Source: Escherichia phage vB_Ec-M-J
Strand: one strand, 5' to 3'
Sequence record: OQ718158.1
DNA length: 64,000 nucleotides
A model generated the notes under the pieces. The model was not told the DNA's origin, made no database searches, and worked only from the letters and a program-made list of their open reading frames with translations. Shown here piece by piece: positions 2,525-54,911 of the stretch (the first letter of the stretch is position 1; each line of letters opens with the position of its first letter). The position numbers and the translations under genes were made by a program.

Positions 2525-3253
2525 ATGATAGATAATATAAAATTTGCAACAGAAATGGCGAATCAACTCAATATAGCAAATTTTCAAATGTTAACATCTG
2601 TTATGGCTGAACATGCTGCTGCATATTCATCTAGTGGTATACAATGTGGACAAGCTAACATGTTAGCTGATGTTTATAGTGAAGTTCAAAGCAAACAATA
2701 TAGCGTGAAGACATACAAGGATAAGTTCGTAAGTCTTTATATGAATGAAGATATTTCAGAAGACCGCAAATTCACCGATTTTATTATTGAACGCCGTATT
2801 AGTGGGGTTTCAGACCCAAATGCAGAAAGTGATATTGTATTCGATGAGGTATTAAAAGATATATACGAAAATGAATTGAAAAGTAAGAATCATTACAATG
2901 TACGTGAAACTAACACAGTGCTAGTTGGATATGATGAAGACGAACAATATTTCTATTTTCGTATAACAGAAGTTCCATTTGAATATAAAAAACCAACCAC
3001 TACATCTGTAAAAGAATTCACTGAGAAGAGTAAAAACTTCAAGAAACACGAAGGAAACCGTTGTAGTATTAATGGTTATGATGAAAATGGTGTTCATGTT
3101 TATGAATGGGTTTCACCTAATTGCCAGACATACACCCGTTGCTTGAAGAAACGTTATAATTTAGAAGACAATGAATCCTTCTACTTTAAAGTTAAGAAAC
3201 AAGGTTATACTCGCCCTGAAGATTCAGAATTGATGGGTATGGTATATTTCTAA
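2525..3253 (+). CDS. hypothetical protein
   Basis: Track ORF; AAGGAA RBS; leader shares the aacacaaggaRtgtg motif with the 1576 gene. Confidence 0.6.
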   Translation: MIDNIKFATEMANQLNIANFQMLTSVMAEHAAAYSSSGIQCGQANMLADVYSEVQSKQYSVKTYKDKFVSLYMNEDISEDRKFTDFIIERRISGVSDPNAESDIVFDEVLKDIYENELKSKNHYNVRETNTVLVGYDEDEQYFYFRITEVPFEYKKPTTTSVKEFTEKSKNFKKHEGNRCSINGYDENGVHVYEWVSPNCQTYTRCLKKRYNLEDNESFYFKVKKQGYTRPEDSELMGMVYF

Positions 3254-3262
3254 GGAACTGTT

Positions 3263-3544
3263 ATGGATTTTTACCTACACACATGGTCATACGAACAATA
3301 CATTACATTATATCTTGAGATTATTAATACTGATCCCAGATATGGTTGTGATTTCGCTGATATTATAAAAGAGTATGCAGATGAGTTTGAGTTTGTATAT
3401 CTTGGTTCTGAACTATTTGTAAAGAGTGTAGGTAAAACCGGACGCATCACTGAAATTGATTATGATACTGTTAGTGTGAATTTCTATGTTGATTTTCCTT
3501 GTGATGGCGTTGATGGTGTATATTGTCTATATGAAATAATTTAA
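3263..3544 (+). CDS. hypothetical protein
   Basis: Track ORF followed by an intrinsic terminator. Confidence 0.55.
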   Translation: MDFYLHTWSYEQYITLYLEIINTDPRYGCDFADIIKEYADEFEFVYLGSELFVKSVGKTGRITEIDYDTVSVNFYVDFPCDGVDGVYCLYEII

Positions 3545-3551
3545 ATTTTAA

Positions 3552-3577
3552 GGCCAGCGTTTGCTGGTCTTTTTTCG
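3552..3577 (+). terminator. rho-independent terminator
   Basis: Hairpin CCAGC-GTTT-GCTGG followed by a T-run (3571-3576). Confidence 0.6.
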
Positions 3578-3588
3578 CAGGTACAAAG

Positions 3589-3891
3589 ATGCTCAGTATA
3601 GATTTAATTAACAGTACTATAAAGTTGTTGGCTGATGTAGTAAAAGAATCCAATGGAACTTTATACCCATCAATGTATAAAATCTTTGAACGATACATCA
3701 AGGATTGTAATATATCCTTATATGGACTGGCAGTTGATATAGACGACCACTATGAAATTAATACTTCATATAAAACTGGAATGTTAATTGGTATTAATAT
3801 AAAGATGGGATATTTTCCTTATTACTGTATAGGATTACCAGATAGTACTATGGTAGATTATCCAGCCAGTATTATTAAACTAAGAGGATAA
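3589..3891 (+). CDS. hypothetical protein
   Basis: Track ORF. Confidence 0.5.
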   Translation: MLSIDLINSTIKLLADVVKESNGTLYPSMYKIFERYIKDCNISLYGLAVDIDDHYEINTSYKTGMLIGINIKMGYFPYYCIGLPDSTMVDYPASIIKLRG

Positions 3892-3898
3892 AACTAAA

Positions 3899-4477
3899 AT
3901 GAATGTATTAGAATTATGTACTAAGCTGATTACTATGCGTAATGAGTGGTACGATTGGTTTTATAATGGTACTGATATGGATTTTTCAAAATATCCATTT
4001 ATGGAATCAGGATGTGATGCAAGATACCGCTGGTTGAGCAAAAGTGGTTCTGGTTTATTCATTCGAATTGATGATAGTGGTCAAGGAATTATAAAAGATT
4101 TAATTCGAGTTGAAGAACTCGTCCATGACAATTGGTGTGATAATGATCCATACCTTGGAAATATGATTTATGTAAGTAAAAATGATTGCATATTCGTTAT
4201 CCAGCGTCATGGTGATTCTATGTTTTATGTAGCAGACAACAGTACACCTGACGGTGCAGCAGCCAATGGACTTATGCCTAAGATTGATATATTGAAATTT
4301 GGATTACCTGAGCACTTCCAGATTAGTACTTTATACGATATTCCACCACTTGAGTTCTTTGAAGAATTTAAATTGTACTTCAATGATCTTCAAAAATTGA
4401 GTACTGATCGACGCATGGAAATAACTGTTAAGTACATGGACGGAACGAAATTAACCGATACGGGGATAGAATTTTGA
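3899..4477 (+). CDS. hypothetical protein
   Basis: Track ORF; AGAGGA RBS. Confidence 0.6.
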   Translation: MNVLELCTKLITMRNEWYDWFYNGTDMDFSKYPFMESGCDARYRWLSKSGSGLFIRIDDSGQGIIKDLIRVEELVHDNWCDNDPYLGNMIYVSKNDCIFVIQRHGDSMFYVADNSTPDGAAANGLMPKIDILKFGLPEHFQISTLYDIPPLEFFEEFKLYFNDLQKLSTDRRMEITVKYMDGTKLTDTGIEF

Positions 4478-5163
4478 TTAAAGATTTAGATAGAATTTTA
4501 TATGTACTGAGAGGTGTAATTACATTACAACCACAGGTTAATCGTATGGAGAGAGCCTTTGAATTAAAATCAAGAGAAACTCCATATTCACATATATCAA
4601 ATGTAGTTGGATCATTCAGTACTGAAGACTCGCCTTATGATATTTGTGTATGTGAAGTACAGCCAAGTTCGGATCTTGGATTTGCTATTTTTGATAAAAA
4701 TCAAAATCTCATTAGTATGTTTCAGTGCAATAATCCTTTTTGGAAAACATGCCTGTATCCAGAGTGGGCTATGCTTGATCCAACAAAGAGTTCCATTAAA
4801 GTATATGACTCTAAAAATGATGAAGTCGTTATTGATTTGGATGAGTCAATGTCAGAGGAAGAACACTTTCAGCTAATGATGATGCGTGCTATGCCTGAGT
4901 ACAATGCAATGATTAACACTGTGCAATACATTAAGGATACCATGCCATCGTTGCGTACACATGAGTTTTGTCATCCGGTATTGTATGAACATTTGGATTT
5001 AGATTTCAGTACTATTAAATTTAAAGATAATGTTATTAATTACATTCAAGAGAATGTTAAATTTGATTTTATTAGTACAATGACAAATAATCCAAATACT
5101 AATTTCAGGCATCAGTACAATGAATCTTTGTCTGGTGGTCGTGATACAACTTGGTGGAAATAA
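4474..5163 (+). CDS. hypothetical protein
   Basis: Track ORF; ATGA overlap with upstream gene. Confidence 0.55.
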   Translation: MIKDLDRILYVLRGVITLQPQVNRMERAFELKSRETPYSHISNVVGSFSTEDSPYDICVCEVQPSSDLGFAIFDKNQNLISMFQCNNPFWKTCLYPEWAMLDPTKSSIKVYDSKNDEVVIDLDESMSEEEHFQLMMMRAMPEYNAMINTVQYIKDTMPSLRTHEFCHPVLYEHLDLDFSTIKFKDNVINYIQENVKFDFISTMTNNPNTNFRHQYNESLSGGRDTTWWK

Positions 5164-5164
5164 T

Positions 5165-5428
5165 ATGAATATCCAAGATAGATTGCAATTGTTGCACACA
5201 CTTGAAGAAGCTGCTTTTGAACTTGTTAATAAAATTGCACAAGAACTCCCAAAAGGAACCAAAGTTCGTGTTCGTGAAATGGATTATTTAACGGGAAAAA
5301 TTGATGAAAAAGTTCTAACAGTGATCAAAGTAACATACTATGAATCAGAGTTATCAATTCAATGTAATTCAGATAATGGTTACGTTTCCTACTATGGTAC
5401 AGATGTAGATATAGAGGTAATAAAATGA
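5165..5428 (+). CDS. hypothetical protein
   Basis: ATG at 5165 directly after the upstream stop; inside track ORF 5120..5428. Confidence 0.5.
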   Translation: MNIQDRLQLLHTLEEAAFELVNKIAQELPKGTKVRVREMDYLTGKIDEKVLTVIKVTYYESELSIQCNSDNGYVSYYGTDVDIEVIK

Positions 5429-6567
5429 CCCTTTTACAAATATATGAAGATTTAATGCACTTATGTAATACCCGTGATGCTTTCTTTTATGTGGATCATA
5501 AAAGTCCTGCTGGTGGAACATATCGTGTATTCAGTTATCGTCTAGCATCATATACCGATTTCATGCAACCCAATGCATTAGAAACCCGTGGTTCTATGTG
5601 GGAAATTGATGAAGACGGTGATATGATTCGTTGTGCTGCTCGTACTATGAAAAAGTTCTTCAATGCTTACGAAAATCCTGCTACAATGTTCCCTGCTGAT
5701 ACCTCATTCGATGACATTGCAGTAGTGATGCCTAAGTTGGATGGTTCAGTAATCAGTACTTACCGTGATAATGATGGTGTAATTCGTTGTAAATCACATA
5801 CTGCATTGTATTCAGACCATGCGATTAACAGTACTCGTCTTCTCAATGAGAACCAAAATTTGTATCAATACATTGACGAAGCAGACCGTTTGGGCTATAC
5901 TGTTAATCTGGAGTATACAAGTCCAGAGTACCGTATTGTATTACCATATCAGGTTGAACAATTATTTGTACTAAACGTTCGCAATCGTAAGAGTGGTGAA
6001 CTATTATGTGGTTCTGCATTACGTAATAAGTTCCCATGCCTTGCACAGTACAGTACTAACATGACAGGTAAAGATATTCATTACACTTTCCCTGCTCGTG
6101 CTACATTCAAAGAAAGTGTTGAAGAAGTTAAGAAAATGCTTGACATTGAAGGTTTTGTGTGCATCCTAAATAATGGTACAATGTGCAAAATCAAAACCGA
6201 CTGGTATTGTTCTTTGCATTTAACGAAAGACAGTATTATAATCGATTCCCATTTATATGAAGCTGTATTAAATGGTTCGAGTGATGATTTAAAACAGTTG
6301 TTCAGTACTGACGAATATGCTACCCAAAAGATATTAAGAATGGAACAACTAGTCTTTTCGTGCTATAATGCTTTACAAGATGAAGTTGAAAGCTTCGTCA
6401 AGGAACACAAGCACTTGGAGCGAAAGGAATTCGCTAAGAAGGTTCAGGAGTGTTTAACTAATGAACTGAATCGTCAGGGCTTGGCCTTTGCAATGTACAA
6501 CAATAAGAAAGTCGATTACAAAGAGACTCTTATTAAGTACATGAAAATTGTACTAAAGGATTTTTAG
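5425..6567 (+). CDS. rnlA: RNA ligase 1 (T4 RnlA-like)
   Basis: Recalled similarity to T4 Rnl1 along the N-terminal half (GTYRVFSY, KFFN, KLDGS lysine-adenylation motif, VKSDWY-like segment). Confidence 0.85.
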   Translation: MTLLQIYEDLMHLCNTRDAFFYVDHKSPAGGTYRVFSYRLASYTDFMQPNALETRGSMWEIDEDGDMIRCAARTMKKFFNAYENPATMFPADTSFDDIAVVMPKLDGSVISTYRDNDGVIRCKSHTALYSDHAINSTRLLNENQNLYQYIDEADRLGYTVNLEYTSPEYRIVLPYQVEQLFVLNVRNRKSGELLCGSALRNKFPCLAQYSTNMTGKDIHYTFPARATFKESVEEVKKMLDIEGFVCILNNGTMCKIKTDWYCSLHLTKDSIIIDSHLYEAVLNGSSDDLKQLFSTDEYATQKILRMEQLVFSCYNALQDEVESFVKEHKHLERKEFAKKVQECLTNELNRQGLAFAMYNNKKVDYKETLIKYMKIVLKDF

Positions 6568-6596
6568 TACTATCTAGCCTAGCACAAGGAGAAGTG

Positions 6597-6851
6597 ATGG
6601 CTAAACCTAAGTATAAAAATGACGGTTCCCTTTCTCCGACAGAATTCAGGAAAATACAAGAAGAAATCGATGAATTACAGCACAAACGCTCTAAGAAAGG
6701 TGTGAAGATTAGTAAGAAACGAATCGAGAATACTTTCGGGTGTAGTAGTACTGAATACAAGAAGAAAAGGAAACCAAAAGGTGTTAAGCCGAGAATACAT
6801 GATGTAACTCGCTATACATCGAAACGTGAAAATAAATTCGACCCACTATAA
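6597..6851 (+). CDS. hypothetical basic protein
   Basis: Lys/Arg-rich ORF; AAGGAG RBS. Confidence 0.5.
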   Translation: MAKPKYKNDGSLSPTEFRKIQEEIDELQHKRSKKGVKISKKRIENTFGCSSTEYKKKRKPKGVKPRIHDVTRYTSKRENKFDPL

Positions 6852-6860
6852 GGAGTTCAT

Positions 6861-7097
6861 ATGAAAGTTGAAGTTCAGCATAGTATTGTTCAGGATATGT
6901 CAGTAGTTAAATTTCTTTCCTTGAAAGATTATTTCAGATGTATCAAGTTCCTAGAAGAATCTCAATTACAGTGGACCCCATTAAAGTACAGTTCATCCAA
7001 TGATACTGCTAGTATTCGTTGTGATGAATCTGTACTTGTGAAAATCTCCAAGCGATTTGGGATTGGAAAATACAATGATAAACAATGCACAAAGTAA
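6861..7097 (+). CDS. hypothetical protein
   Basis: Track ORF; AAGGAG RBS. Confidence 0.5.
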   Translation: MKVEVQHSIVQDMSVVKFLSLKDYFRCIKFLEESQLQWTPLKYSSSNDTASIRCDESVLVKISKRFGIGKYNDKQCTK

Positions 7098-7386
7098 TTT
7101 GCTATATATAAAGTCAGTTGAAGCTGAAATTAAAAATTCAGTTCAAACTATCGTCGAGGAAATGATTGACAAATACAAGAGCAATCTTATTGGAAAGAAA
7201 GTCAGATGTTGGGATTACACATTCAAACACTGGTACGATTCCGAGATTGTGAAAGTTGATGTGAATACTGATAGTAATGGTCTAATTAATGGTATTGCGT
7301 ATGTTGGTGTTTTAATACGCAAGGGAACGCCACAGGAATGGCTCACCTATCATAATATAGAGCATGTTAAATTTATAGAGGATTAA
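7075..7386 (+). CDS. hypothetical protein
   Basis: In-frame ATG at 7075 of track ORF 7057..7386; start uncertain. Confidence 0.4.
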   Translation: MINNAQSNLLYIKSVEAEIKNSVQTIVEEMIDKYKSNLIGKKVRCWDYTFKHWYDSEIVKVDVNTDSNGLINGIAYVGVLIRKGTPQEWLTYHNIEHVKFIED

Positions 7387-7389
7387 AGG

Positions 7390-8322
7390 ATGCCAACTAT
7401 CACACTAACAGTTGGATTGCCTGGGTGTGGTAAAACTACATGGGCAGTGCAAGAGATTAAAAAAGCCAAATCCAAGACTATCAACATCAACCGTGATGAT
7501 ATTCGTGAATCTATGGCTGGGTCACATGATGCTTACAAATTCAACGATGCTAATGAGCAGTACGTAACTAATTTACAGTTCAGTGCAGCAAATTCAGCCG
7601 CAGAGAATGGTTGGAACATCATCATATCCGATACGAACCTTAAACAACATTTCCGTAATCTATGGAAAGTATGGGCTATAGATAATGGTTATGATTACAA
7701 AGAAAAGAATTTCTATGATGATTTTGTACCTAATGAAGACCGTGGTGCAGATGTTCATGAATTCTTTAAGATTAAAGAGTTCGTAAAACTTTGTAAGAAA
7801 TATAACCTCCAGCGTGAGCGTTCAGTACAAGATAATATCATTGACACTATGGCAGATACGTACTATTATAGTAAGGCATTACACATTGGTTACTATGGTA
7901 ATTCACGAGAAGCTGCTATTATCGTTGATATCGACGGTACTCTTGCTCATAAATGGGGACGTAACCCGTTCGATGAAAGTACTGTACTCCAGGATACACC
8001 AGACGAAGAAGTTATTTTGTCGATTATCGCAGAAGCAGTTTTTCATAAACGCAAGATTATCGTCATGAGTGGGCGTACTGAAGGGTGTCGTGCTGATACC
8101 GAACAGTGGCTTAAGAATTGGGGTGTTCCTTACGATGCGTTGTTTATGCGAGGCATCGATGATAAACGTCCTGATGATGTTGTTAAATTCGACCTGTACA
8201 TGAAAAATGTGGTTGATCATTACGATGTTAAAAAGGTTTATGATGACCGCAATCAAGTTGTTTTTATGTGGCGTAAGCTACTTGGGTTGAAAGTTTTCCA
8301 AGTGGCAGAAGGAAATTTCTAA
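7390..8322 (+). CDS. pseT: polynucleotide 5'-kinase / 3'-phosphatase (T4 PseT-like)
   Basis: N-terminal P-loop GLPGCGKTT; HAD-type phosphatase motif DIDGT; C-terminal WQVA..G.F as in T4 Pnk. Confidence 0.9.
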   Translation: MPTITLTVGLPGCGKTTWAVQEIKKAKSKTININRDDIRESMAGSHDAYKFNDANEQYVTNLQFSAANSAAENGWNIIISDTNLKQHFRNLWKVWAIDNGYDYKEKNFYDDFVPNEDRGADVHEFFKIKEFVKLCKKYNLQRERSVQDNIIDTMADTYYYSKALHIGYYGNSREAAIIVDIDGTLAHKWGRNPFDESTVLQDTPDEEVILSIIAEAVFHKRKIIVMSGRTEGCRADTEQWLKNWGVPYDALFMRGIDDKRPDDVVKFDLYMKNVVDHYDVKKVYDDRNQVVFMWRKLLGLKVFQVAEGNF

Positions 8323-8325
8323 TAC

Positions 8326-8357
8326 AAAAGGGATCATATATTGGTCCCTTTTTCTTT
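8326..8357 (+). terminator. rho-independent terminator
   Basis: AAGGGA...TCCCTT hairpin followed by TTTCTTTT. Confidence 0.5.
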
Positions 8358-8379
8358 TAAGGTACATTATAGTGAATGT

Positions 8380-8538
8380 AACAACACAGATGTTATTACG
8401 AAAAGACTACTTAGAAAATATAGAAAGATACTACAGAATGTCTTTGTATGAAAATAAACATAAAAATTATAATTTTAATAAACTACTAAATTCCAGTACT
8501 GAAGATTATCTATTTTCATCAATGTTTTATGTGAGAGG
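8380..8538 (+). CDS. small hypothetical protein (52 aa)
   Basis: Own translation of an otherwise unannotated 190-bp gap. Confidence 0.25.
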
Positions 8539-8547
8539 ATTATTGTA

Positions 8548-8808
8548 ATGGATAAATTTCACACAGATATATCACAGATAGGTAATCTTATCAATAGTCT
8601 AATTACTGATTTAGAAGAAAAGTACTTAGGACGAAATGTATACTTAGAAATGTATGAAACATATGGTGTTATTGATATGATTTATTACAGTGCATTGAAG
8701 TATGAAATACGTTTAACTGTATGTTTATATGAAAAAGGTACATTTAAAAGAAGTACTGCAATTCGTCAAGTTGGAGTTGATGACATGGAATTATACGAGG
8801 AACACTGA
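8548..8808 (+). CDS. hypothetical protein
   Basis: Track ORF; GAGAGGA RBS. Confidence 0.5.
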   Translation: MDKFHTDISQIGNLINSLITDLEEKYLGRNVYLEMYETYGVIDMIYYSALKYEIRLTVCLYEKGTFKRSTAIRQVGVDDMELYEEH

Positions 8809-9059
8809 TGTTTGAGCAGGACTTAGAGCTATTCAAAAGTTATGTCGAGTACTTAGTTACATTAGAAAAAGAGCTAACGACAAAGTACAAAGGTATTCGT
8901 GTTCTGTGCTGGTATGATGATTCGGATTATAAACGTGAACTCACCATTGACCGAATCTATTTCATCGACGGTGTATTGAATGTGCATGGTGTAAATGATT
9001 TTGGACATTCATATACTTATTCGAATAATGCTAAATTCAAGAGGATTGACAATGAATGA
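8808..9059 (+). CDS. hypothetical protein
   Basis: Track ORF. Confidence 0.5.
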   Translation: MFEQDLELFKSYVEYLVTLEKELTTKYKGIRVLCWYDDSDYKRELTIDRIYFIDGVLNVHGVNDFGHSYTYSNNAKFKRIDNE

Positions 9060-9354
9060 GTACTATCAAAATTTATTCAATTACATAAAACTAATAGATG
9101 ATCTTGCTTTCGATTTTCTTAGTACTGATAAAGTTGGTGAGCCTTTATATTATGATTGTATTGGAACACTTTGTTCAGATGAAAAGAATATATTAGAAAA
9201 TAAATTACCGTCATCACAGTGCTTAATCAATGGTTCCAAAGCAGTAATAACTGATGTTAATTTTTATAAATCTCTTAATACTATTTGTTATGTATTCAAT
9301 AACACTGTGTTTAAACATGTAACAAGTAATATTAAATCTGTGAGGTTCTTATGA
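9052..9354 (+). CDS. hypothetical protein
   Basis: ATG at 9052 (MNEYYQ) within track ORF 8995..9354. Confidence 0.5.
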   Translation: MNEYYQNLFNYIKLIDDLAFDFLSTDKVGEPLYYDCIGTLCSDEKNILENKLPSSQCLINGSKAVITDVNFYKSLNTICYVFNNTVFKHVTSNIKSVRFL

Positions 9355-9647
9355 ATTTAAAACTTTTGTTAGAACAGGTACATTTATTGTATAGCTGTGC
9401 TGATGGTTCTGATAAGGAGTATAGTGAAGTTTATTTAGAACTGTTTAGAACGGAAATACACATAATTAGAAGATACTTAATTGATAATAAAACTGAAGTA
9501 AAAGTTAGATACCATAATGGTACTTTAAAGAATGGTATAATTATTGGATTGATAGTTACACGAATGTCTAGTAATATTAAAGTTGCAGTTAGATTAATGA
9601 CTGATGATGGTGTCTACACCATAGAAGTAAGTGAGATTATATATTAA
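9351..9647 (+). CDS. hypothetical protein
   Basis: Track ORF; ATGA overlap. Confidence 0.5.
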   Translation: MNLKLLLEQVHLLYSCADGSDKEYSEVYLELFRTEIHIIRRYLIDNKTEVKVRYHNGTLKNGIIIGLIVTRMSSNIKVAVRLMTDDGVYTIEVSEIIY

Positions 9648-9953
9648 ATGGATATACAAACATTCAATAAACTAAAGTACTATGACAATGGTTTTGCTAT
9701 TATCATTGATGAACTAGATGGAATACCATATGAGTATCATAATGATGTAATGAAGATAGTAAAAAGTATTTGTAATGATTTAAAAACTATTTTCGAAAAT
9801 GAATATGTATACGACTTAGGTACAAACAATAAGAAACTATACATAAAGAAATTCTGTGGAACGCATTGTGGTCTGATGGTTGATTTAGGTTTAAGTGCTG
9901 ACAACAATTTCGAAGCATGTAGTTTATATCTGGATGAAATGCGAATCTCATGA
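9648..9953 (+). CDS. hypothetical protein
   Basis: Track ORF. Confidence 0.5.
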   Translation: MDIQTFNKLKYYDNGFAIIIDELDGIPYEYHNDVMKIVKSICNDLKTIFENEYVYDLGTNNKKLYIKKFCGTHCGLMVDLGLSADNNFEACSLYLDEMRIS

Positions 9954-9979
9954 GACATATCTTGATTCGGTGATATAAT
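9952..9979 (+). promoter_or_regulatory. sigma70-like promoter, extended -10
   Basis: GAGACA 9952-9957, 16-bp spacer, TGaTATAAT with TATAAT at 9974-9979. Confidence 0.5.
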
Positions 9980-10010
9980 TTCATTACAACACTGACATGG
10001 AGTGGTTGTT

Positions 10011-12745: not shown

Positions 12746-12973
12746 ATGAAAGTAATTCAAGTTATGGTAGAAAAATACCAAACCGAAGATGGTCGTATTT
12801 TTGATTCAGCAAAACAAGCTGAACACCATGAACGTATTATTTCTGGAGCACGTAAAGTGTGCCCTACATGTAATGGTACACAACAAGTTCCATCTGAAGA
12901 CTATCGCAGTTATTATGCTTGTCCACATTGTGATGGTAAAGGGTTTGTAGAAAAACAAGAGGTATGGAAATGA
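12746..12973 (+). CDS. small zinc-ribbon protein
   Basis: CPTC...CPHC; AAGGAA RBS. Confidence 0.5.
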   Translation: MKVIQVMVEKYQTEDGRIFDSAKQAEHHERIISGARKVCPTCNGTQQVPSEDYRSYYACPHCDGKGFVEKQEVWK

Positions 12974-13383
12974 AATTATATTGCTTAACAAACATGTACT
13001 GTCAAGGTGTCCAAGCTGGCATTCAAGCATTTCATGCTGGTGTTAAACTAATTAAAGAATATGAAGGTACTGCTTTCAGTACTATTATTGATGAATGGTA
13101 TTATGACCACGAAACTATTGTAGTACTAAATGCTGGTGGTCATGATAAGTTAAATTCTTATTATGATGACCTTTGTAAGCAGGGGAAAGTTCCATTCGCT
13201 AAATTCAATGAAGCCGGATTAAATGATGCAACTACATGTGTAGCAGTACTATGTACATCTGAAATGGTTGAAGACATGTCTGTTATGCGTATGAATCTTC
13301 CTGCTGGGGATCAACTAATGCAAGTAAAATATGGTGCATTGTTTAACACATTAAAAGCAATTAGCACAATGAGGACTGTTTGA
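12964..13383 (+). CDS. hypothetical protein
   Basis: Track ORF. Confidence 0.5.
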   Translation: MEMKLYCLTNMYCQGVQAGIQAFHAGVKLIKEYEGTAFSTIIDEWYYDHETIVVLNAGGHDKLNSYYDDLCKQGKVPFAKFNEAGLNDATTCVAVLCTSEMVEDMSVMRMNLPAGDQLMQVKYGALFNTLKAISTMRTV

Positions 13384-17670: not shown

Positions 17671-18366
17671 ATGGTTGAACAATTCAATTTTGGTGGTTAT
17701 GCTGGTGGTGAAGTTCGCAACATTTCTATTCCTTATGTAGTTGAAAAAGTTAATGGTGCAGAACGTACTTATGATCTAGCATCTCGTATGATGCAAGACC
17801 GTATCATTTTCCTTGATACTGACTTCAATGACCAAATGGCACATATCATCAAGCAACAATTGGTGTGGTTGGATTCTCAGGGTTCTGAACCAATTACCTT
17901 CTACATTAGTTCTCCTGGTGGTTCAGTACACGCAGGTTTGGGTATCGCTGACATTGCTAAGTCTTGTGTATCTCCTATCCGTACAGTAGTAATGGGTTAT
18001 GCAGCATCAATGGGTTGCTATACACAATCAGTAGTTGGGACTAAAGGTTTCCGTCTAGGTGGTAAGCGTTCTTACTTCATGTGTCATCAAGTAAGTTCCG
18101 GTACTCAGGGTCTGATTACCGATCAGAAGATTTCTTTGAAACACTCTGACGCATTGAACACACTATTGACGAAAGAAATTGCTGAAGCAGTTGGTGTATC
18201 ACACGAACAACTACTGAAAGATGCTGACCGTGACCTGTGGTTGAACGCTGAAGAAGCACTCGAATACGGTGAACATGGTTTCATTGATGGTATCATCCTT
18301 GGTCCACGCAACGAAGAAGGTAAGTATCTCGTCAAACGTCGCGGTGGCGTGGAAGAGTGGGTCTAA
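17671..18366 (+). CDS. ClpP-family serine peptidase
   Basis: ClpP-like SSPGGSVHAG, catalytic-Ser context AASMG, His context CHQ; GAGGAAAA RBS. Confidence 0.8.
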   Translation: MVEQFNFGGYAGGEVRNISIPYVVEKVNGAERTYDLASRMMQDRIIFLDTDFNDQMAHIIKQQLVWLDSQGSEPITFYISSPGGSVHAGLGIADIAKSCVSPIRTVVMGYAASMGCYTQSVVGTKGFRLGGKRSYFMCHQVSSGTQGLITDQKISLKHSDALNTLLTKEIAEAVGVSHEQLLKDADRDLWLNAEEALEYGEHGFIDGIILGPRNEEGKYLVKRRGGVEEWV

Positions 18367-22001: not shown

Positions 22002-22262
22002 ATGACAAATTTACAAAACTTAACATCTCTTGTTTTTTATGCAACAACTATTGTATATTGCATTACATTAGTTTTAACATGTTTCATCTATAAAGACTAC
22101 AAACGTGGTTTTATGGATTCCAGTACACACAAATTTGCATCCAAGTTAGAAGCAGGAATTTACTATGTTCTATCAATTTCTTATGGAGCATGTTTACTTA
22201 CACTAGGGTTGCTGATATACTGGTTGTATACGGCACTTTTTGCACAAGGAGTTATTTCATGA
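22002..22262 (+). CDS. small membrane protein
   Basis: Two hydrophobic helices; AGGAG RBS. Confidence 0.45.
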   Translation: MTNLQNLTSLVFYATTIVYCITLVLTCFIYKDYKRGFMDSSTHKFASKLEAGIYYVLSISYGACLLTLGLLIYWLYTALFAQGVIS

Positions 22263-23084: not shown

Positions 23085-23837
23085 GTGATATCAGATAAAT
23101 TTATACAAAATGCTGGGAACAAAAGATTACTTATAATTTCAGGGGCAGGTCTTTCAGTTGAGAGCGGGATGGAACCATTCCGCTTTGATGATGGGTTGTG
23201 GGACAATTTCAAAATTAATGATGTTTGTAACATTGCACGACTTAGTTCTAAGTATCATGTAGTTCATTCATTTTATAATACATTGCGTGTAAAATTAGGT
23301 GAATGTCATCCTAATGAAATGCATTACTTTATTAAATCATTAGAAGATTTGTATGGTGATTGTTTTTTACACATGACTTCTAATATGGATGATCTATATA
23401 CTAGAATTGGTGGAACCGAACTCAAACTACACGGCAATTTATGTGAAGTAATTGAGAACTTTTCTATTAATACCGATGATTACAATGTCATTAATTGTGG
23501 TTATGAACCATATATTCCTAAAGCTGATGTTTTTGCAAAACCAAATGTAGTGATGATTGGTGAGTATCATCGCTACGTTGATGGGGTACGTCTCCCCATT
23601 TATGAAGAACGAAATGAAGTGTTGAAAAGTCTCACAGAAAATGATACAGTTGTAGTTATTGGAAGTAGTGATACAGTACTGGTATGGTCCAGACTAGCTG
23701 GTGCACTTCCATGCTATAGTGTAAATGTTAACATCCGAAAAAATGATAATGATTTTCTTTTTAATGAGAAGGTCATCAAACCTGCGACGAAAGCAATTCC
23801 ACAGATTGAAACTATAATTAAGGAACGAATGCGATGA
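23085..23837 (+). CDS. Sir2-family (sirtuin-like) NAD-dependent deacylase/ADP-ribosyltransferase
   Basis: GAGLSVESG..FR..GLW; TSNMD (TQNID-like); VVVIGSS; GTG start with AAGGAG RBS. Confidence 0.7.
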   Translation: MISDKFIQNAGNKRLLIISGAGLSVESGMEPFRFDDGLWDNFKINDVCNIARLSSKYHVVHSFYNTLRVKLGECHPNEMHYFIKSLEDLYGDCFLHMTSNMDDLYTRIGGTELKLHGNLCEVIENFSINTDDYNVINCGYEPYIPKADVFAKPNVVMIGEYHRYVDGVRLPIYEERNEVLKSLTENDTVVVIGSSDTVLVWSRLAGALPCYSVNVNIRKNDNDFLFNEKVIKPATKAIPQIETIIKERMR

Positions 23838-24385
23838 GTAAAGCGGAAGTACCACTGGGGCAAATGGGGAAACGTGCAAATTTTGTATTCTGTTTCTTTT
23901 ATGCAAAAGAATGTACCCCATACGCTGGTTATGAACTAAATGATATCCCAGTGGTTAACTTAGTACTCCTACAAGTGCGTTGGGATGGATTGTTGGGTGC
24001 ATGTGGTGGAACAGTTGAAAGTACTGATAAGTCATTAGAAGATGCGTTACAGCGTGAAGTTCAAGAAGAAATGAACTATATCATTGACAAAAGTCGCCTG
24101 TCTCCATTAAAATCACTTGAATTGTTTCCAGAGGGACACTCACATAGCTATAGTTATGAAATGACTTATGCTGAACTTAAAAAACTTCGTGATAATTATG
24201 CATATGGCAAACATGCTAGTGCAGAGGTGGCTGGTGTAAATTTATGTCACATCTCTCGTTATTCGAAGGGACAAAATCGAGAAGCAGGATATAATAATCT
24301 TATGACACAGAACTTCATCGGAACTGCGAAACAAGAATTAGAGTATCTTGTACAAAAAGAAAACTTACTAATCAGCTATCTATAG
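23834..24385 (+). CDS. Nudix-fold hydrolase-like protein
   Basis: Near-canonical Nudix box GGTVE..x..ALQREVQEE with one extra residue. Confidence 0.5.
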   Translation: MSKAEVPLGQMGKRANFVFCFFYAKECTPYAGYELNDIPVVNLVLLQVRWDGLLGACGGTVESTDKSLEDALQREVQEEMNYIIDKSRLSPLKSLELFPEGHSHSYSYEMTYAELKKLRDNYAYGKHASAEVAGVNLCHISRYSKGQNREAGYNNLMTQNFIGTAKQELEYLVQKENLLISYL

Positions 24386-24394
24386 GAGTTTAAA

Positions 24395-24715
24395 ATGTCG
24401 TACTCAATGTTCTTGGATGATATTCGTGATTATCAAAAATATTATCCTGACCAAGAGATGGTATTGTGTCGTGACTACGAAAGTGCATGTGAATACGTAA
24501 TCAAAAATGGAATTCCAGCATTTGTCTCATTTGACCATGACTTGGGTGACTTGAGTACAGATGAGAAAACGGGATACACTTTTGCCAAATTTCTAATTGA
24601 TTATATGTTTGAGCATAATATTAAAGAACCATTTAAATACTATGTACATAGTAGTAATCCAGTAGGGAAAGTTAATATTGAAACTTACTTAACTAATGGA
24701 TTTAATGCACTATGA
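24395..24715 (+). CDS. hypothetical protein
   Basis: Track ORF; TAGGAG RBS. Confidence 0.5.
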   Translation: MSYSMFLDDIRDYQKYYPDQEMVLCRDYESACEYVIKNGIPAFVSFDHDLGDLSTDEKTGYTFAKFLIDYMFEHNIKEPFKYYVHSSNPVGKVNIETYLTNGFNAL

Positions 24716-29548: not shown

Positions 29549-30163
29549 ATGACTACATCTGAAAAGTACTGGTGGATTATGGGCCATCCTAAATTCATCA
29601 ACGGAGATATGGTTCCCCCAAGGATTGATATCGAACCACATGATGTGTGTCCAATCACAAACCGCATTGAATCATTTAAAGCTCTGAATACAAAGACACA
29701 ATTTTGGGTAGAATTCATCTCACCTATGTACGTTGAGCAAGATGATGAATGGGTACAAGCACATGATTATGAGTTAGATTGCGGTGGTGATACTTATGAT
29801 GAGGCAATTGATGAACTATACAAAAATGTGCTAAACACTTATGGTGATTACACCCAACAAGAAGCAGACGATACGTTTAATAAGATCCATGCAGTCATTC
29901 CTACATCATCAATTTACAATTCAGCAAAAACAGTTTGGGAAGAACGTCACGGGTGGAGTTCATCTGTAATTGATGCAGAAGCCAAAGAAACAATTCTCGA
30001 AGACATAAAAAATATAAAAAGTACAATAGAAGCCTTGCGTGAATTTATAAAGTCTTGTACAATAGAACAACAGAAAGAGGCAAAGATGCATTTGGAGAGT
30101 GAAGAATGTAAACTTTGGGTTCTAGAGAAATCATTTGAAAAGGGTATAGACTTAGACTTATGA
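29549..30163 (+). CDS. hypothetical protein
   Basis: ATG at 29549 with GGAG RBS; within track ORF 29537..30163. Confidence 0.5.
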   Translation: MTTSEKYWWIMGHPKFINGDMVPPRIDIEPHDVCPITNRIESFKALNTKTQFWVEFISPMYVEQDDEWVQAHDYELDCGGDTYDEAIDELYKNVLNTYGDYTQQEADDTFNKIHAVIPTSSIYNSAKTVWEERHGWSSSVIDAEAKETILEDIKNIKSTIEALREFIKSCTIEQQKEAKMHLESEECKLWVLEKSFEKGIDLDL

Positions 30164-30528
30164 ATCGTAAACTTGAGAAACTAATTGAAGAACTACGCCG
30201 GATGCCACCCATCGAGCAAGTGGGGAGCTACAAACGTTATCGTGTGATTGCTCGTGCACTAGATAAGAAAGGTCGTGTATTGGCAACACGTACTAATTCT
30301 TACACACATACTCACCCAGTACAGAAAGGTTTTGCAATCCGTGCTGGGCGTCCACAAGGTGAATTTCTTCATGCTGAAATCTCATGTTTGCTGGCTTCTC
30401 GTGCTGAAGTTCATACTTTGTTGATTGCACGGGTAAGTAAAGATGGTATTCCAGTCCCTGCCAAGCCTTGTGAGATTTGTACGTTGGCAATTCTGGAATA
30501 TGGGGTAAAAGAAATTATTCACACATGA
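30160..30528 (+). CDS. CDA-fold (cytidine/nucleotide deaminase-like) zinc-binding protein
   Basis: HAEISCL ... PCEICTLAI, the H[AC]E / PCxxC deaminase signature (TadA/CDA-like). Confidence 0.55.
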   Translation: MNRKLEKLIEELRRMPPIEQVGSYKRYRVIARALDKKGRVLATRTNSYTHTHPVQKGFAIRAGRPQGEFLHAEISCLLASRAEVHTLLIARVSKDGIPVPAKPCEICTLAILEYGVKEIIHT

Positions 30529-34783: not shown

Positions 34784-34818
34784 CAAAAAAGCACCCAAAT
34801 GGGTGCTTTGTCTATTTT
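34784..34818. terminator. bidirectional rho-independent terminator between convergent genes
   Basis: AAAAAA-GCACCC-AAAT-GGGTGC-TTTGTCTATTTT, between nrdG (+) and the RCC1-like gene (-). Confidence 0.7.
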
Positions 34819-43812: not shown

Positions 43813-44214
43813 ATGACTACAGTTGATGATATCTACAGTACTATACGAAATATGAGTACAGATAGAAAAGTGTTTGGTGACAAAGAAAAGTCAAAATGTT
43901 ATGGCATCGATTCTTTTGATATTATTTCATACGAATATAATAACAACGGGACCAGTTCACTAAACATTGTGTGTCCACGAGATCCAGAAAATAATTTCAT
44001 GTACGTTGAAATTAACAATGATGGTATGTTCTTTACTAAAGTATATAAAGGTGGGAAAGAATACGAACCCATCGAAGTAATGAATGAAGAGAAATTCTTC
44101 CAAGAAGATACCATCATCAATCTTGGATTTAGTTACAATGACTATCAAGTACTGGATCATGATTTTAAACGATACTATAATGGTTTTCTAAAGGAGTTAA
44201 CGATTTACTTATGA
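43813..44214 (+). CDS. hypothetical protein
   Basis: Track ORF. Confidence 0.5.
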   Translation: MTTVDDIYSTIRNMSTDRKVFGDKEKSKCYGIDSFDIISYEYNNNGTSSLNIVCPRDPENNFMYVEINNDGMFFTKVYKGGKEYEPIEVMNEEKFFQEDTIINLGFSYNDYQVLDHDFKRYYNGFLKELTIYL

Positions 44215-45449
44215 AAAACAATTTTCTAGAACAAACTATTGTGAAACACTTAGCTGGTTCACAGGCGTATGGCACAAGCACACCAGAAAGTGATACCGAT
44301 TATCGTGGTATCTTCCTTGCAAACAAAGAATTTATCCTAACTCCTTTTTTTAATGTTAAGGAAGTTTCAGATCCTTCTGAAGAAGATACTAAATTTTATG
44401 AAGTCAATCAGTACTTAAGTCTGTATACTGAAGCTAACCCAAACATTCTTGAATCACTATGGGTTAAACCTGAACACATCGTAGAAAGTACTGAAATCTA
44501 TGACTATCTACGCTCATTCAATCAGCAATTATTGAGTTCAAAGATTGCACACTCATACAGTGGATATGCATACAATCAGGTTAAGCGTATGTCTAATCAC
44601 CACGGCTGGCTCGATAAGGAACGAATTGCTGAACGTAAACTAAATGAAATTTTAGAAGAACATCCAGTTGACGAAGTACTTTCATGGATGTATGATACAT
44701 TCCCGCAGTATTTGGTAGACCGTTTGAATAAATCCAATCTTCACCCATTCAATGCTACAAAAATTGATTTTGAAAAATACATGCGTGATACTTCATTACA
44801 ATTAGTTTCAACACAAGCATTGAAACAATATCATTTTGTACGTTTAGTACATAATTATAGTACTGATAAAGTATTAGATCGTGATTTCAATTTATTGAAT
44901 TACAATTCAGGGTATGAACTAATCCATTACGGTGAAAACATCTTTGGGGTAATTATCAACCCGAATGAAAGTACAGTGAATGCTGATGGTTCACTACGTT
45001 ACTTCAACAAAGAACGTACTACAGAAGAATTGAAAGTTCGTCCTGAACTCATTGTAAAATTCAATGAAAAGGAATACAAAGAAAATAGTGAGAACCGTAA
45101 GAGTTATCACAAATGGAAGCAGAATCGTAATGCCAAACGTGCTATTCTTGAATCACACCACGGTTATGACTGCAAACATGCTATGCATACAATCAGGCTG
45201 CTGAATACAGCACAGGAAGCACTTGAAACTGGTATCATCCAAGTTCACCGACCGGATGCTGCTATGTTGATGGACATTCGTAACGGGAAGTGGTTGTATC
45301 AAGAAGTTATGGATTATTTCAACGAAAAGGTTGACTACATCCGAAATGTGGCGTATCATAAGACCCATCTACCGAAGCGACCAAACATAAAGTTGGCTAC
45401 GAAGGTACTATTAGATATCCGTGAAATGCAATGGTACAGTAAAAAATAA
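44211..45449 (+). CDS. Pol-beta-superfamily nucleotidyltransferase (RlaP-like)
   Basis: N-terminal hGS-x9-D-x-D motif (AGSQAYGTSTPESDTDYRG) recalled as typical of RlaP-type predicted nucleotidyltransferases. Confidence 0.55.
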   Translation: MKNNFLEQTIVKHLAGSQAYGTSTPESDTDYRGIFLANKEFILTPFFNVKEVSDPSEEDTKFYEVNQYLSLYTEANPNILESLWVKPEHIVESTEIYDYLRSFNQQLLSSKIAHSYSGYAYNQVKRMSNHHGWLDKERIAERKLNEILEEHPVDEVLSWMYDTFPQYLVDRLNKSNLHPFNATKIDFEKYMRDTSLQLVSTQALKQYHFVRLVHNYSTDKVLDRDFNLLNYNSGYELIHYGENIFGVIINPNESTVNADGSLRYFNKERTTEELKVRPELIVKFNEKEYKENSENRKSYHKWKQNRNAKRAILESHHGYDCKHAMHTIRLLNTAQEALETGIIQVHRPDAAMLMDIRNGKWLYQEVMDYFNEKVDYIRNVAYHKTHLPKRPNIKLATKVLLDIREMQWYSKK

Positions 45450-49628: not shown

Positions 49629-49635
49629 AATATAT

Positions 49636-54500: not shown

Positions 54501-54911
54501 ATGATTGAAATGGAAGGAACTCTGGTGTATGATCCAGATCGTGGCACTATGAAAAAGAAGAAGGACTTCTGGTTAGTACTGCAACTTCCATTACAGTTGG
54601 TTCGATACTACCAGTACTTCATCAGAACTGACTTACATATTGATATTAAAGACCCACAATGGGGAGCACATGTCAGTATCGTTCGTGGTGAAGTGCCACC
54701 AAATCCAGAGTACTGGAAAAAGTACGATGGTATGAAAGTTAAGATTAAGTTCGAACCTTTCATCGAAGAAGTAAAAGACAATAAGAAACCTGGGTCATTC
54801 TTTATCATAGAGTTTGAAGATGATTTCATTGCACAAATTCGTGATGAACTTGGTTTAGCATCTAAATATTTCAAATATCACATCACCATTGGTAGAACAT
54901 ACTACGATTAA
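54501..54911 (+). CDS. putative 2H-phosphoesterase (LigT/cyclic-phosphodiesterase-like)
   Basis: Two H-x-[ST]-x motifs (AHVSIV and YHITIG) about 70 aa apart. Confidence 0.4.
   Translation: MIEMEGTLVYDPDRGTMKKKKDFWLVLQLPLQLVRYYQYFIRTDLHIDIKDPQWGAHVSIVRGEVPPNPEYWKKYDGMKVKIKFEPFIEEVKDNKKPGSFFIIEFEDDFIAQIRDELGLASKYFKYHITIGRTYYD

What the first reader, a model, noticed from the sequence alone, without database searches (positions are those of the whole stretch)
5425..8322. RNA ligase 1 plus polynucleotide kinase: core of an extended RNA-repair gene set
RnlA and Pnk are the classic T4 pair that heals anticodon-nuclease damage to tRNA. This window additionally carries a CCA-adding enzyme (57995..59110), an RlaP-like nucleotidyltransferase (44211..45449), a putative 2H phosphoesterase (54501..54911) and a TadA/CDA-like deaminase (30160..30528). 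Together they suggest the phage can repair or remodel tRNA ends, anticodon loops and 2',3'-cyclic phosphates well beyond the T4 paradigm.
Basis: partly seen in the sequence, partly recalled or inferred. Interest (0 to 1): 0.6.

Follow-up and report, generated by a model that had tools for sequence, protein, structure and literature searches.

The report
Jumbo coliphage tRNA repair gene set
This stretch of a known giant E. coli phage carries the classic T4-type RNA ligase and polynucleotide kinase pair plus several scattered helper enzymes for mending damaged tRNA; the set is real, but it has already been described for giant phages, so it is ordinary.

Summary
All six ORFs sit exactly where stated and have profile support. 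The window is an Asteriusvirus (PBECO4/121Q-like) jumbo coliphage, 98.8% identical to phage Turkey3.

- **Rnl1 (5425-6567) and Pnkp (7390-8322):** full-length T4 homologues with the catalytic residues checked all present. They lie in the T4 gene order and are followed by a terminator-like hairpin.
- **RlaP (44211-45449) and CCA-adding enzyme (57995-59110):** solid assignments. In two unrelated phages their homologues cluster with a PTH2-like hydrolase, and in one of them also with Thg1 and Rnl1.
- **2H protein (54501-54911):** a real 2H-fold, 2H-SAK-family protein. Its substrate is open: RNA 2',3'-cyclic ends or Acb1-like signal degradation.
- **Deaminase (30160-30528):** CDA superfamily only. 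Its nearest solved relatives are dCMP deaminases, and I found no TadA-specific feature and no RNA link.

"Well beyond T4" is overstated. T4 itself has an RlaP (NrdC.11) and a 2H protein (Acb1). The genes are spread over 53 kb, and the whole concept was published for jumbo phages in 2021.

The parts
5425..6567 (+). RNA ligase 1 (T4 RnlA family), 380 aa, with the C-terminal Rnl1 domain
   Evidence: TIGR02308 equivalog 286.9 bits, above the 242.25 cut-off. PF09511 plus PF20819. Aligns with T4 Rnl1 structure 2C5U at E=3.2e-56; the motif I lysine in KLDGS lines up with T4 K99. 35% identity to T4 rnlA, E=9e-61.
6594..7386 (+). Three small ORFs of unknown function between ligase and kinase (6594-6851, 6861-7097, 7057-7386)
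   Evidence: They match only function-unknown PHROGs 15306, 14730 and 31355. No Pfam hit. No similarity to T4 alc or pseT.1-3, which occupy the same position in T4.
7390..8322 (+). Polynucleotide 5'-kinase / 3'-phosphatase (T4 PseT type), 310 aa
   Evidence: AAA_33 plus HAD_PNKP 1.8e-43. Full-length alignment with T4 Pnk 1LTQ at E=2.7e-38, with GCGKT, NRDDIR and DIDGT conserved. 33% identity to T4 pseT, E=1.3e-44.
8326..8352 (+). Terminator-like hairpin plus T-run, 4 nt after the Pnk stop codon
   Evidence: 11-pair stem with a T-rich tail. The number of such sites in the region is not above the shuffled expectation (3 against 2.5), so the position is only suggestive.
12964..13383 (+).
   Evidence: PF01981 at 8.5e-5, 23.2 bits against a cut-off of 23. 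Its homologues in Klebsiella phage KB57 and Vibrio phage D181 (34-36% identity) lie immediately upstream of RlaP and downstream of the CCA enzyme.
23085..24715 (+). SIR2 (23085-23837), Nudt16-like Nudix (23834-24385) and cRec, the cyclic-phosphate-processing receiver domain (24395-24715)
   Evidence: PF02146 2.4e-18, PF22327 4.6e-17, PF20274 1.3e-21. cRec is predicted to clear cyclic 2',3' ends and is linked to RNA ligases in PMC7824862.
25076..26515 (+). PIN-PhoH protein (PhoH2-like RNA helicase with an endoRNase domain)
   Evidence: PF13638 4.6e-20 plus PF02562 2.7e-44. NCBIfam PhoH2 at 1.9e-45.
30160..30528 (+). Minimal CDA-fold zinc deaminase, 122 aa; substrate unknown; probably not part of RNA repair
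44211..45449 (+). RlaP-family Pol-beta nucleotidyltransferase, 412 aa
   Evidence: PF10127 at 4.2e-16. G16-S17, D28, D30 and D59 are invariant against the KB57, D181 and T4 NrdC.11 proteins. BLASTP to T4 NrdC.11 gives 7e-13 (N-terminal part) and 3e-5 (C-terminal part).
54501..54911 (+). Stand-alone 2H phosphoesterase of the 2H-SAK family, 136 aa
56021..56353 (+). HPF/YfiA-like ribosome hibernation factor, 110 aa
   Evidence: PF02482 at 9.2e-9. TIGR00741 at 5.8e-8, below its cut-off.
57995..59110 (+). Class II tRNA nucleotidyltransferase (CCA-adding type), 371 aa, without an HD domain
   Evidence: PF01743 plus PF12627. Residues 1-204 match the E. coli-type Cca model NF008137 at 1.4e-83, against PcnB at 5.8e-26. 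PDB hits to CCA and A-adding enzymes. GGYVRD, DKD, RRDLTIN and EDPLR motifs seen in the sequence.

Best explanation
The window is part of the early/middle gene region of an Asteriusvirus jumbo coliphage. ORFs 5425-6567 and 7390-8322 are a T4-type heal-and-seal pair. After a host tRNase cuts a tRNA and leaves 2',3'-cyclic phosphate and 5'-OH ends, the Pnkp phosphatase domain clears the 3' end, its kinase domain phosphorylates the 5' end, and Rnl1 reseals the anticodon loop. Around this pair the phage carries a dispersed, non-operonic set of accessory enzymes. RlaP adds back one or two nucleotides when a nuclease such as RloC has excised a base. A CCA-adding enzyme rebuilds or completes tRNA 3' ends. 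A PTH2-like hydrolase frees peptidyl-tRNA or its fragments. The 2H-SAK protein and cRec are candidates for opening cyclic phosphates. Shown here: homology, conservation of the catalytic residues checked, predicted folds and conserved neighbourhoods in other phages. Inferred: substrates, the in vivo role, and which host nucleases are countered. The 122-aa deaminase is not supported as a member of this set.
For: Rnl1 passes the T4 RnlA equivalog cut-off and aligns over its full length with T4 Rnl1, with motif I, III, IV and V residues conserved. Pnkp aligns end to end with T4 Pnk, with the P-loop, the Asp-Arg of NRDD-x-R, and DxDGT, R, SGR, DD and DDR of the phosphatase conserved. Gene order is the same as in T4: rnlA, then small ORFs, then pseT, all on one strand. 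[quoted passage not shown] That enzyme adds 1-2 NMP to RNA 3'-OH and is needed to restore aminoacylation of over-damaged tRNA. In Klebsiella phage KB57 and Vibrio phage D181, the full-length RlaP homologues (36% and 32% identity) sit about 2 kb from a tRNA nucleotidyltransferase gene with a PTH2-like gene in between. In D181 they are also within 3 kb of Thg1 and Rnl1 genes. The 2H protein belongs to PF22547 and has a 2H fold. One homologue is fused to a YqeY-like (PF09424) domain, and Atu_ph07 encodes that same domain, annotated 'tRNA amidotransferase', two genes downstream of its 2H gene. That this domain type binds tRNA in GatB is my own knowledge. The general model is published for jumbo phages (PMC7824862).
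Against: The genes are spread over 53 kb with about 120 other genes in between, and only Rnl1 and Pnkp are adjacent. No experiment exists for this phage group; the phAPEC6 paper names RNA ligase and polynucleotide kinase only in a reference title. Three of the four tRNA genes of the close relative TH47 lack an encoded CCA, so the CCA enzyme may serve maturation rather than repair. The best structural match of the 2H protein is the anti-CBASS nuclease Acb1. T4 Pnkp already opens cyclic phosphates, so a separate 2H enzyme is not required. The 2H Pfam score of this particular protein is below the family cut-off. T4 RnlA also has a non-catalytic tail-fibre attachment role, according to the T4 annotation.
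Confidence: 0.7

Rival explanations
1. The CCA-adding enzyme is there mainly to finish the phage's own tRNAs, not to repair attacked tRNA. Phage tRNA precursors without an encoded CCA need CCA addition after 3' trimming.
For: In the 97%-identical relative TH47, ARAGORN finds only four tRNA genes (Thr-UGU, Asn-GUU, Ser-GCU, Arg-UCU). Three are followed by C-A-A or T-A-A instead of CCA after the discriminator base. CCA-enzyme homologues occur in 497 phage records, many of them large genomes of the kind that carry tRNA genes (the tRNA link is my own knowledge).
Against: The chemistry is the same, so the two roles are not exclusive. E. coli already has its own Cca (own knowledge). In KB57 and D181 the CCA gene is a neighbour of PTH2-like and RlaP genes, and in D181 also of Thg1 and Rnl1 genes, which points to repair or rescue.
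Confidence: 0.4
2. The 136-aa 2H protein is an immune-signal-degrading phosphodiesterase, like Acb1 or the coronavirus ns2 and poxvirus cGAMP phosphodiesterases, rather than an RNA-end healing enzyme.
Confidence: 0.25
3. The listed genes are not one functional set. They share a 53-kb early region simply because all nucleic-acid enzymes of the phage are there. The deaminase is a nucleotide-pool enzyme, and only Rnl1 and Pnkp work together.
For: The same region holds NrdD/NrdG, thymidine kinase, a dNMP kinase-like ORF, DNA ligase, a Cd orthologue, glutaredoxin and ClpP. Every gene runs on the + strand apart from one inserted ORF. The deaminase's best solved relatives are dCMP deaminases.
Against: RlaP, CCA-enzyme and PTH2-like homologues are tightly clustered in unrelated phages, in D181 together with Thg1 and Rnl1 genes. 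RlaP has a demonstrated RNA 3'-end activity. Spacing of about 10-13 kb between the RlaP, 2H and CCA genes is kept in Klebsiella phage RaK2, where they lie at 1860, 13168 and 15164.
Confidence: 0.2
4. The 122-aa deaminase edits tRNA or other RNA (TadA-like).
Against: The family profile prefers dCMP deaminases: about 30 bits against 20-23 for the nucleoside/tRNA-deaminase-like entries. No NCBIfam model of any kind matches. The model ends right after the strand that follows the PCxxC helix, with no C-terminal helix; that TadA uses such a helix to bind the tRNA is my own knowledge. No RNA-repair gene lies next to it.
Confidence: 0.1

Closest known systems
Phage T4 RnlA (gp63) and PseT (Pnkp) tRNA repair pair, which counters the PrrC anticodon nuclease
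   Same: Both proteins are full-length homologues (35% and 33% identity) with the catalytic residues checked conserved. Gene order and strand are the same: ligase, small ORFs, kinase.
   Different: The intervening small ORFs are unrelated to alc and pseT.1-3. Pnkp has a roughly 16-residue insertion in the kinase domain. No Rnl2 homologue was detected in the relative TH47 (the query sequence was recalled from memory). Activity has not been tested.
RlaP family (PF10127): T4 NrdC.11 and Pseudomonas PfRlaP/PaRlaP of RtcB-RlaP-RtcA operons
   Same: Pol-beta nucleotidyltransferase N-terminal domain with GS and three Asp, plus a C-terminal region that is also similar to NrdC.11.
   Different: 412 aa, with an insertion of about 55 residues (roughly 146-200) that is absent from the KB57, D181 and T4 proteins. 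It lies 37 kb from the RNA ligase rather than next to it. No solved structure is detectable by sequence.
CCA / PTH2-like / RlaP gene neighbourhood of Klebsiella phage KB57 and Vibrio phage D181 (D181 also has Thg1 and Rnl1 nearby)
   Same: Homologues of CCA enzyme, PTH2-like hydrolase, RlaP and Rnl1 are all present in the window.
   Different: In those phages the genes lie within 3-7 kb. Here they are scattered (12.9, 44.2, 58.0 and 5.4 kb), and no Thg1 was found in the window.
E. coli multifunctional Cca (CCA addition/repair protein)
   Same: The head and neck domains are very similar: NF008137 at 1.4e-83 over residues 1-204.
   Different: The C-terminal half is unrelated and no HD phosphohydrolase domain is detected.
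Jumbo-phage RNA-repair complement described by Iyer, Anantharaman, Krishnan, Burroughs and Aravind 2021 (PMC7824862)
   Same: Same families and the same proposed logic: Rnl1, PNK-HAD, RlaP, CCA enzyme, 2H, cRec, PTH2, PhoH.
   Different: Nothing essential. I could not confirm from the text held that this phage genus is tabulated, because the supplements are not held. Only four tRNA genes were found here, against a mean of 18 reported for subgroup 2.2.
Acb1 (T4 57B), the anti-CBASS 2H phosphodiesterase
   Different: No detectable sequence relationship. The window protein belongs to a different Pfam family, 2H-SAK.

Membership tests
T4 RnlA (Rnl1) RNA ligase family | Score above the curated equivalog cut-off (TIGR02308) | tested here: met
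   286.9 bits against 242.25.
T4 RnlA (Rnl1) RNA ligase family | Covalent nucleotidyltransferase motifs: the KxDG lysine, and the motif III, IV and V acidic and lysine residues | tested here: met
   The alignment with 2C5U pairs KLDGS with T4 KEDGS, NLEY with NFEF, IEGF with IEGY and KIKTDWY with KIKSDWY. Which residues are essential is from my knowledge of T4 Rnl1 mutagenesis.
T4 RnlA (Rnl1) RNA ligase family | C-terminal Rnl1-specific domain (tRNA specificity) | tested here: met
   PF20819 at 2.6e-16, residues 268-379 covering profile positions 1-113 of 122.
T4 RnlA (Rnl1) RNA ligase family | Seals broken tRNA anticodon loops | not testable with these tools
   Needs biochemistry.
T4 Pnkp (PseT) | N-terminal P-loop 5'-kinase with Walker A and the Asp/Arg of NRDDxR | tested here: met
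   GLPGCGKT and NRDDIR align with T4 GCPGSGKS and NRDDYR.
T4 Pnkp (PseT) | C-terminal DxDxT (HAD) 3'-phosphatase domain | tested here: met
   PF25109 at 1.8e-43. DIDGT aligns with T4 DVDGT, and SGR, DDVVK and DDR are conserved.
RlaP (PF10127) | Pfam score above the gathering threshold | tested here: met
   59.8 bits against 23.
RlaP (PF10127) | Pol-beta catalytic signature: GS plus three conserved aspartates | tested here: met
   G16, S17, D28, D30 and D59 are invariant in a 4-way alignment that includes T4 NrdC.11. The three-Asp requirement comes from PMC12776372.
RlaP (PF10127) | Gene adjacent to an RNA ligase (the origin of the family name) | tested here: not met
   In this window the gene lies 37 kb from Rnl1. 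The feature is met in Vibrio phage D181, where Rnl1 is within 3 kb.
Class II CCA-adding enzyme | Head domain with GGxVRD and DxD, RRD, EDxxR, plus the neck RNA-binding domain | tested here: met
   PF01743 at 5.4e-19 and PF12627 at 2e-9. The motifs are read directly in the sequence. NF008137 at 1.4e-83.
Class II CCA-adding enzyme | Adds C-C-A, as opposed to being A-adding, CC-adding or a poly(A) polymerase | tested here: inconclusive
   The CCA models score far better than PcnB (281 against 91 bits) or the A-adding model (67 bits). However, every score is below the equivalog cut-offs because the C-terminal half differs.
E. coli-type multifunctional Cca | C-terminal HD phosphohydrolase domain | tested here: not met
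   No HD hit at E<=0.1. The match to the 409-position model stops at position 204.
2H phosphoesterase superfamily / 2H-SAK (PF22547) | Two conserved H-x-T/S motifs | tested here: met
   H57 is invariant and S59 nearly so; H127 and T129 are invariant in 17 sequences.
2H phosphoesterase superfamily / 2H-SAK (PF22547) | 2H fold | tested here: met
2H phosphoesterase superfamily / 2H-SAK (PF22547) | Pfam gathering score | tested here: inconclusive
   This protein scores 23.8 bits, below the 27-bit cut-off. All 17 aligned relatives match the family, best 3.9e-10, and most homologues carry a precomputed PF22547 hit.
Acb1 anti-CBASS nuclease family | Sequence homology to T4 57B/Acb1 | tested here: not met
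   hhalign probability 0.5%, E=0.11.
TadA tRNA adenosine deaminase | CDA-fold core with H(C)AE and PCxxC | tested here: met
   These residues are invariant, but the feature is shared by the whole superfamily.
TadA tRNA adenosine deaminase | Specific sequence affinity to TadA rather than to other deaminase clades | tested here: not met
   The profile search ranks dCMP deaminases first (2.5e-6 to 4.1e-6). The entry I recognise as TadA, 2A8N, scores 4e-3. No NCBIfam model matches.
TadA tRNA adenosine deaminase | C-terminal helix that contacts the anticodon arm | tested here: not met
   The predicted secondary structure ends with strand 118-121 and no helix follows. The role of that helix in TadA is from my own knowledge.
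PTH2 peptidyl-tRNA hydrolase (ORF 12964-13383) | Pfam gathering score | tested here: met
   23.2 bits against 23, so only marginally. Homologues in KB57 and D181 score below the threshold (16.8 and 18.4 bits).

The most novel reading that the evidence does not exclude
Asteriusviruses, which carry only about four tRNA genes of their own, may rely on repair rather than replacement of tRNA. The scattered genes would form one coordinated multi-lesion pathway able to defeat several different host tRNases: Pnkp and Rnl1 for cut loops, RlaP for excised bases, the CCA enzyme for eroded 3' ends, PTH2 for stuck peptidyl-tRNA fragments, and 2H-SAK and cRec for cyclic phosphates. In addition, the extra minimal deaminase, which coexists with a bona fide Cd orthologue and lacks the usual C-terminal elements, could act on RNA or on a defence-related nucleotide.
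Probability: 0.2. Interest if true: 0.5.

Novelty: already known. Interest (0 to 1): 0.22.

Why it matters
If the set works as proposed, it shows how a giant coliphage keeps translation running when the host cuts, trims or strips its tRNAs. That bears on the host range of jumbo phages considered for therapy. The idea and the families involved are already published, and the phage group is already sequenced. The practical value here is better annotation: RlaP and the 2H protein are 'hypothetical' in the closest record, Turkey3, where the PTH2-like ORF is labelled a protein phosphatase and cRec is also 'hypothetical'. The work also leaves two concrete open questions: the substrate of the 2H-SAK protein and that of the extra small deaminase.

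Tried and rejected
- **PDB sequence searches.** Searches with RlaP, the 2H protein and the deaminase as single sequences gave nothing meaningful. Structure prediction and a family profile were needed instead.
- **Acb1 membership of the 2H protein.** Rejected at sequence level.
- **TadA assignment of the deaminase.** Rejected.
- **Neighbourhoods of distant 2H homologues.** Bacillus phage G, Atu_ph07 and RsoM2USA are mostly 'hypothetical' and gave little. The exceptions were a Macro-domain gene within 3 kb in phage G and a YqeY-like gene in Atu_ph07.
- **YqeY-like gene.** None was found in the window or in TH47 by tblastn.
- **Rnl2.** No homologue was found in TH47 by tblastn. The query was recalled from memory, so this negative is weak.
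- **Promoter scan of 3000-10000.** Not above shuffled expectation: 34 sites against 38.6.
- **Interruption of the TH47 RlaP gene.** An Rfam search found no intron. Translation showed it is an intein.
- **tRNA genes.** None in the window itself.
- **Literature access.** Burroughs and Aravind 2016 (PMC5062991) is not held, and the supplements of PMC7824862 are not held. Whether 121Q/PBECO4 are tabulated in its Figure 7a therefore stays unverified.
- **Host PrrC/RloC genes.** These could not be searched, because no protein search of the E. coli genome collection is offered.
Full report
**Identity of the window**

Bases 5000-9000 match 35 phage records. The best is Escherichia phage Turkey3, at 98.8% identity over 100% of the query. 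PBECO4, 121Q-type phages, phAPEC6 and others follow at 92-98%. The relative TH47 is classified in Asteriusvirus. The window is therefore a piece of a known jumbo coliphage of about 350 kb.

GC content is 30-37%, and nearly all genes are on the + strand. In Turkey3 the two core genes are already annotated 'RNA ligase I' and 'polynucleotide kinase'.

**Observation check**

*Rnl1 (5425-6567)*
- It hits PF09511 and the T4 Rnl1 C-terminal domain PF20819, and phrog_562 at 9.5e-108.
- It passes the NCBIfam equivalog for T4 RnlA, at 286.9 bits against a cut-off of 242.25.
- It aligns with the T4 Rnl1 crystal structure sequence at E=3.2e-56. The motif I lysine (KLDGS) and the motif III, IV and V residues are in place.

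*Pnkp (7390-8322)*
- It aligns end to end with T4 Pnk (1LTQ) at E=2.7e-38.
- The P-loop, NRDDxR and the DxDGT phosphatase nucleophile are conserved.

*Comparison with T4*
- Direct BLASTP against T4 gives 35% identity for rnlA and 33% for pseT.
- The arrangement is the same as in T4: ligase, a few small ORFs, then kinase, all on one strand.
- The intervening ORFs are unrelated to those of T4.
- A terminator-like hairpin lies 4 nt after the Pnkp stop codon.

**The two nucleotidyltransferases**

*RlaP (44211-45449)*
- It hits PF10127 at 4.2e-16.
- It is similar to T4 NrdC.11 in both its N-terminal (7e-13) and C-terminal (3e-5) parts.
- It keeps GS and three invariant aspartates. These match the catalytic triad reported for PfRlaP.
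- That study shows RlaP adds one or two NMP to RNA 3'-OH ends, and that it is needed to restore aminoacylation of tRNA that has lost a nucleotide. The same study places T4 NrdC.11 in the family.
- Homologues occur in 1579 phage records, including T4-like phages, where the match lies next to genes annotated thioredoxin or glutaredoxin nrdC.

*CCA enzyme (57995-59110)*
- It has the class II head and neck domains.
- Residues 1-204 match the E. coli-type Cca model at 1.4e-83, far better than PcnB at 5.8e-26.
- No HD domain is detected, and the C-terminal half is unrelated to that of E. coli Cca.
- Homologues are in 497 phage records, including Vibrio phage KVP40.

**Neighbourhood evidence**

In Klebsiella phage KB57 and Vibrio phage D181, the closest full-length RlaP homologues lie about 2 kb downstream of a tRNA nucleotidyltransferase gene. 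A small 'hydrolase' gene sits directly upstream of RlaP. In D181 a Thg1 gene and an Rnl1 gene follow within 3 kb.

That 'hydrolase' is PTH2-like. It has a homologue in the window at 12964-13383 (PF01981 at 23.2 bits against a cut-off of 23). This is the strongest evidence here that RlaP, the CCA enzyme, PTH2 and Rnl1 work on a common substrate, tRNA.

**The 2H protein (54501-54911)**

- By Pfam alone it is sub-threshold, at 23.8 bits against 27.
- Two H-x-T/S motifs are conserved across 17 relatives. All of those relatives match PF22547.
- The family is confined to 76 phage records; every one listed, and all but one of the named contigs, is a genome of more than 300 kb.
- It has 903 clusters in the large representative library, and nearly all of the 150 best are stand-alone proteins of about 100-250 aa.
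- One relative is fused to a YqeY-like (PF09424) domain. Atu_ph07 encodes that same domain, annotated 'tRNA amidotransferase', two genes from its 2H gene. This is a modest hint towards tRNA.

**The deaminase (30160-30528)**

- It has invariant HAE and PCxxC motifs and a confident CDA-fold model.
- The family profile prefers dCMP deaminases, including that of cyanophage S-TIM5 at 2.5e-6, over the nucleoside/tRNA-deaminase-like entries.
- No NCBIfam model matches.
- The real Cd orthologue is a different ORF, 20277-20759, at 40% identity to T4 Cd.
- I see no evidence tying the 122-aa protein to tRNA.

**Other relevant genes in the window**

Found by scanning almost all ORFs of 60 aa or more against Pfam (two large ORFs, 36097-38793 and 39410-42139, were left out):
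- A SIR2 / Nudt16-like Nudix / cRec triad at 23085-24715.
- PIN-PhoH at 25076-26515.
- An HPF/YfiA-like protein at 56021-56353.
- A Nudix gene directly after the CCA gene (59217-59630).
- A Macro domain with DarG-like affinity at 60450-60926.

**tRNA genes**

The window has none. The relative TH47 has four. Three of them lack an encoded CCA, which offers a mundane role for the CCA enzyme.

**Comparison with what is known**

Iyer et al. 2021 (PMC7824862) describe exactly this complement for jumbo phages: Rnl1, PNK-HAD, RlaP, CCA enzyme, 2H, cRec, PTH2 and PhoH. They propose the same logic, including RlaP restoring bases removed by RloC.

T4 itself has an RlaP and a 2H protein. T4 Pnkp opens cyclic phosphates, according to the title of PMC3592404 and the T4 pseT annotation.

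The finding is therefore a correct reading of the sequence, but it is not new. Its 'beyond T4' framing holds mainly for the CCA enzyme and the PTH2, cRec, PhoH and HPF genes.

**Verdict**

Novelty is 'already known', and interest is low.

Noticed in passing
window 12964-13383 (+): PTH2-like peptidyl-tRNA hydrolase (PF01981, 23.2 bits against a cut-off of 23). The closest record annotates it as a serine/threonine protein phosphatase. Homologues sit between the CCA-enzyme and RlaP genes in phages KB57 and D181.
   Followed up: yes
window 23085-24715 (+): Three consecutive genes: SIR2, a Nudt16-like Nudix, and cRec (the cyclic-phosphate-processing receiver domain, PF20274 at 1.3e-21). This is the NAD/ADP-ribose-linked arrangement described for jumbo phages. 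PIN-PhoH follows at 25076-26515.
   Followed up: partly
window 60450-60926 (+), with the Nudix gene at 59217-59630: A Macro-domain protein (Pfam Macro at 21.7 bits against 22). Its best NCBIfam match is the DarG antitoxin macrodomain (2.4e-8), so it could reverse ADP-ribosylation by DarT-like defences. It lies 1.3 kb from the CCA-Nudix gene pair.
   Followed up: partly
window 56021-56353 (+): A phage-encoded HPF/YfiA-like ribosome hibernation factor (PF02482 at 9.2e-9), between the 2H and CCA-enzyme genes.
   Followed up: partly
window 34812-36002 (-): The only sizeable minus-strand ORF (396 aa, RCC1-like repeats, PF00415 at 4e-10). It lies in an extra segment of about 1.2 kb that is absent from the closest relative Turkey3, between nrdG and a large protein gene.
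   Followed up: partly
window 36097-38793, 38806-39393, 39410-42139 (+): Three consecutive ORFs (898, 195 and 909 aa) end in nearly the same C-terminal motif (…GSSFPVS.G.P..TGT..W). They look like paralogous fibre-like proteins sitting in the middle of an enzyme-rich region.
   Followed up: no
L008 about 48950-49997 and L009 (phage TH47, record positions about 348950-350000, - strand): In the relative TH47 the RlaP gene carries an in-frame intein of about 340-350 aa, with LAGLIDADG-type motifs (…ESHHGYD|CYSFDTEF…TALHGN|CKHAMH…). It is inserted at the conserved GYD-CKH site. The window's RlaP has no intein.
   Followed up: partly
L005 12219-12532 (-) (phage TH47, record positions about 162219-162532): An Rfam group I intron hit (100.5 bits, E=2e-25), 100 nt from the tRNA-Ser gene inside the phage's small tRNA cluster.
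   Followed up: no
window 44211-45449, residues about 146-200 of the protein: The window's RlaP has an insertion of about 55 residues after the nucleotidyltransferase domain. It is absent from the KB57, D181 and T4 NrdC.11 homologues.
   Followed up: no
window 20277-20759 and 30160-30528 (+): There are two CDA-fold deaminases in one phage. The first is the T4 Cd orthologue (40% identity). The second is a 122-aa minimal form that ends right after the strand following the PCxxC helix. It is conserved in 195 phage records, including phiKZ-like Pseudomonas phages and cyanophages.
   Followed up: partly
window 17671-18366, 21301-21909, 22190-22852 (+): A ClpP homologue (PF00574 at 2.3e-40) and two further ORFs that Turkey3 annotates as Clp/ATP-dependent protease subunits lie in the same region.
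   Followed up: no
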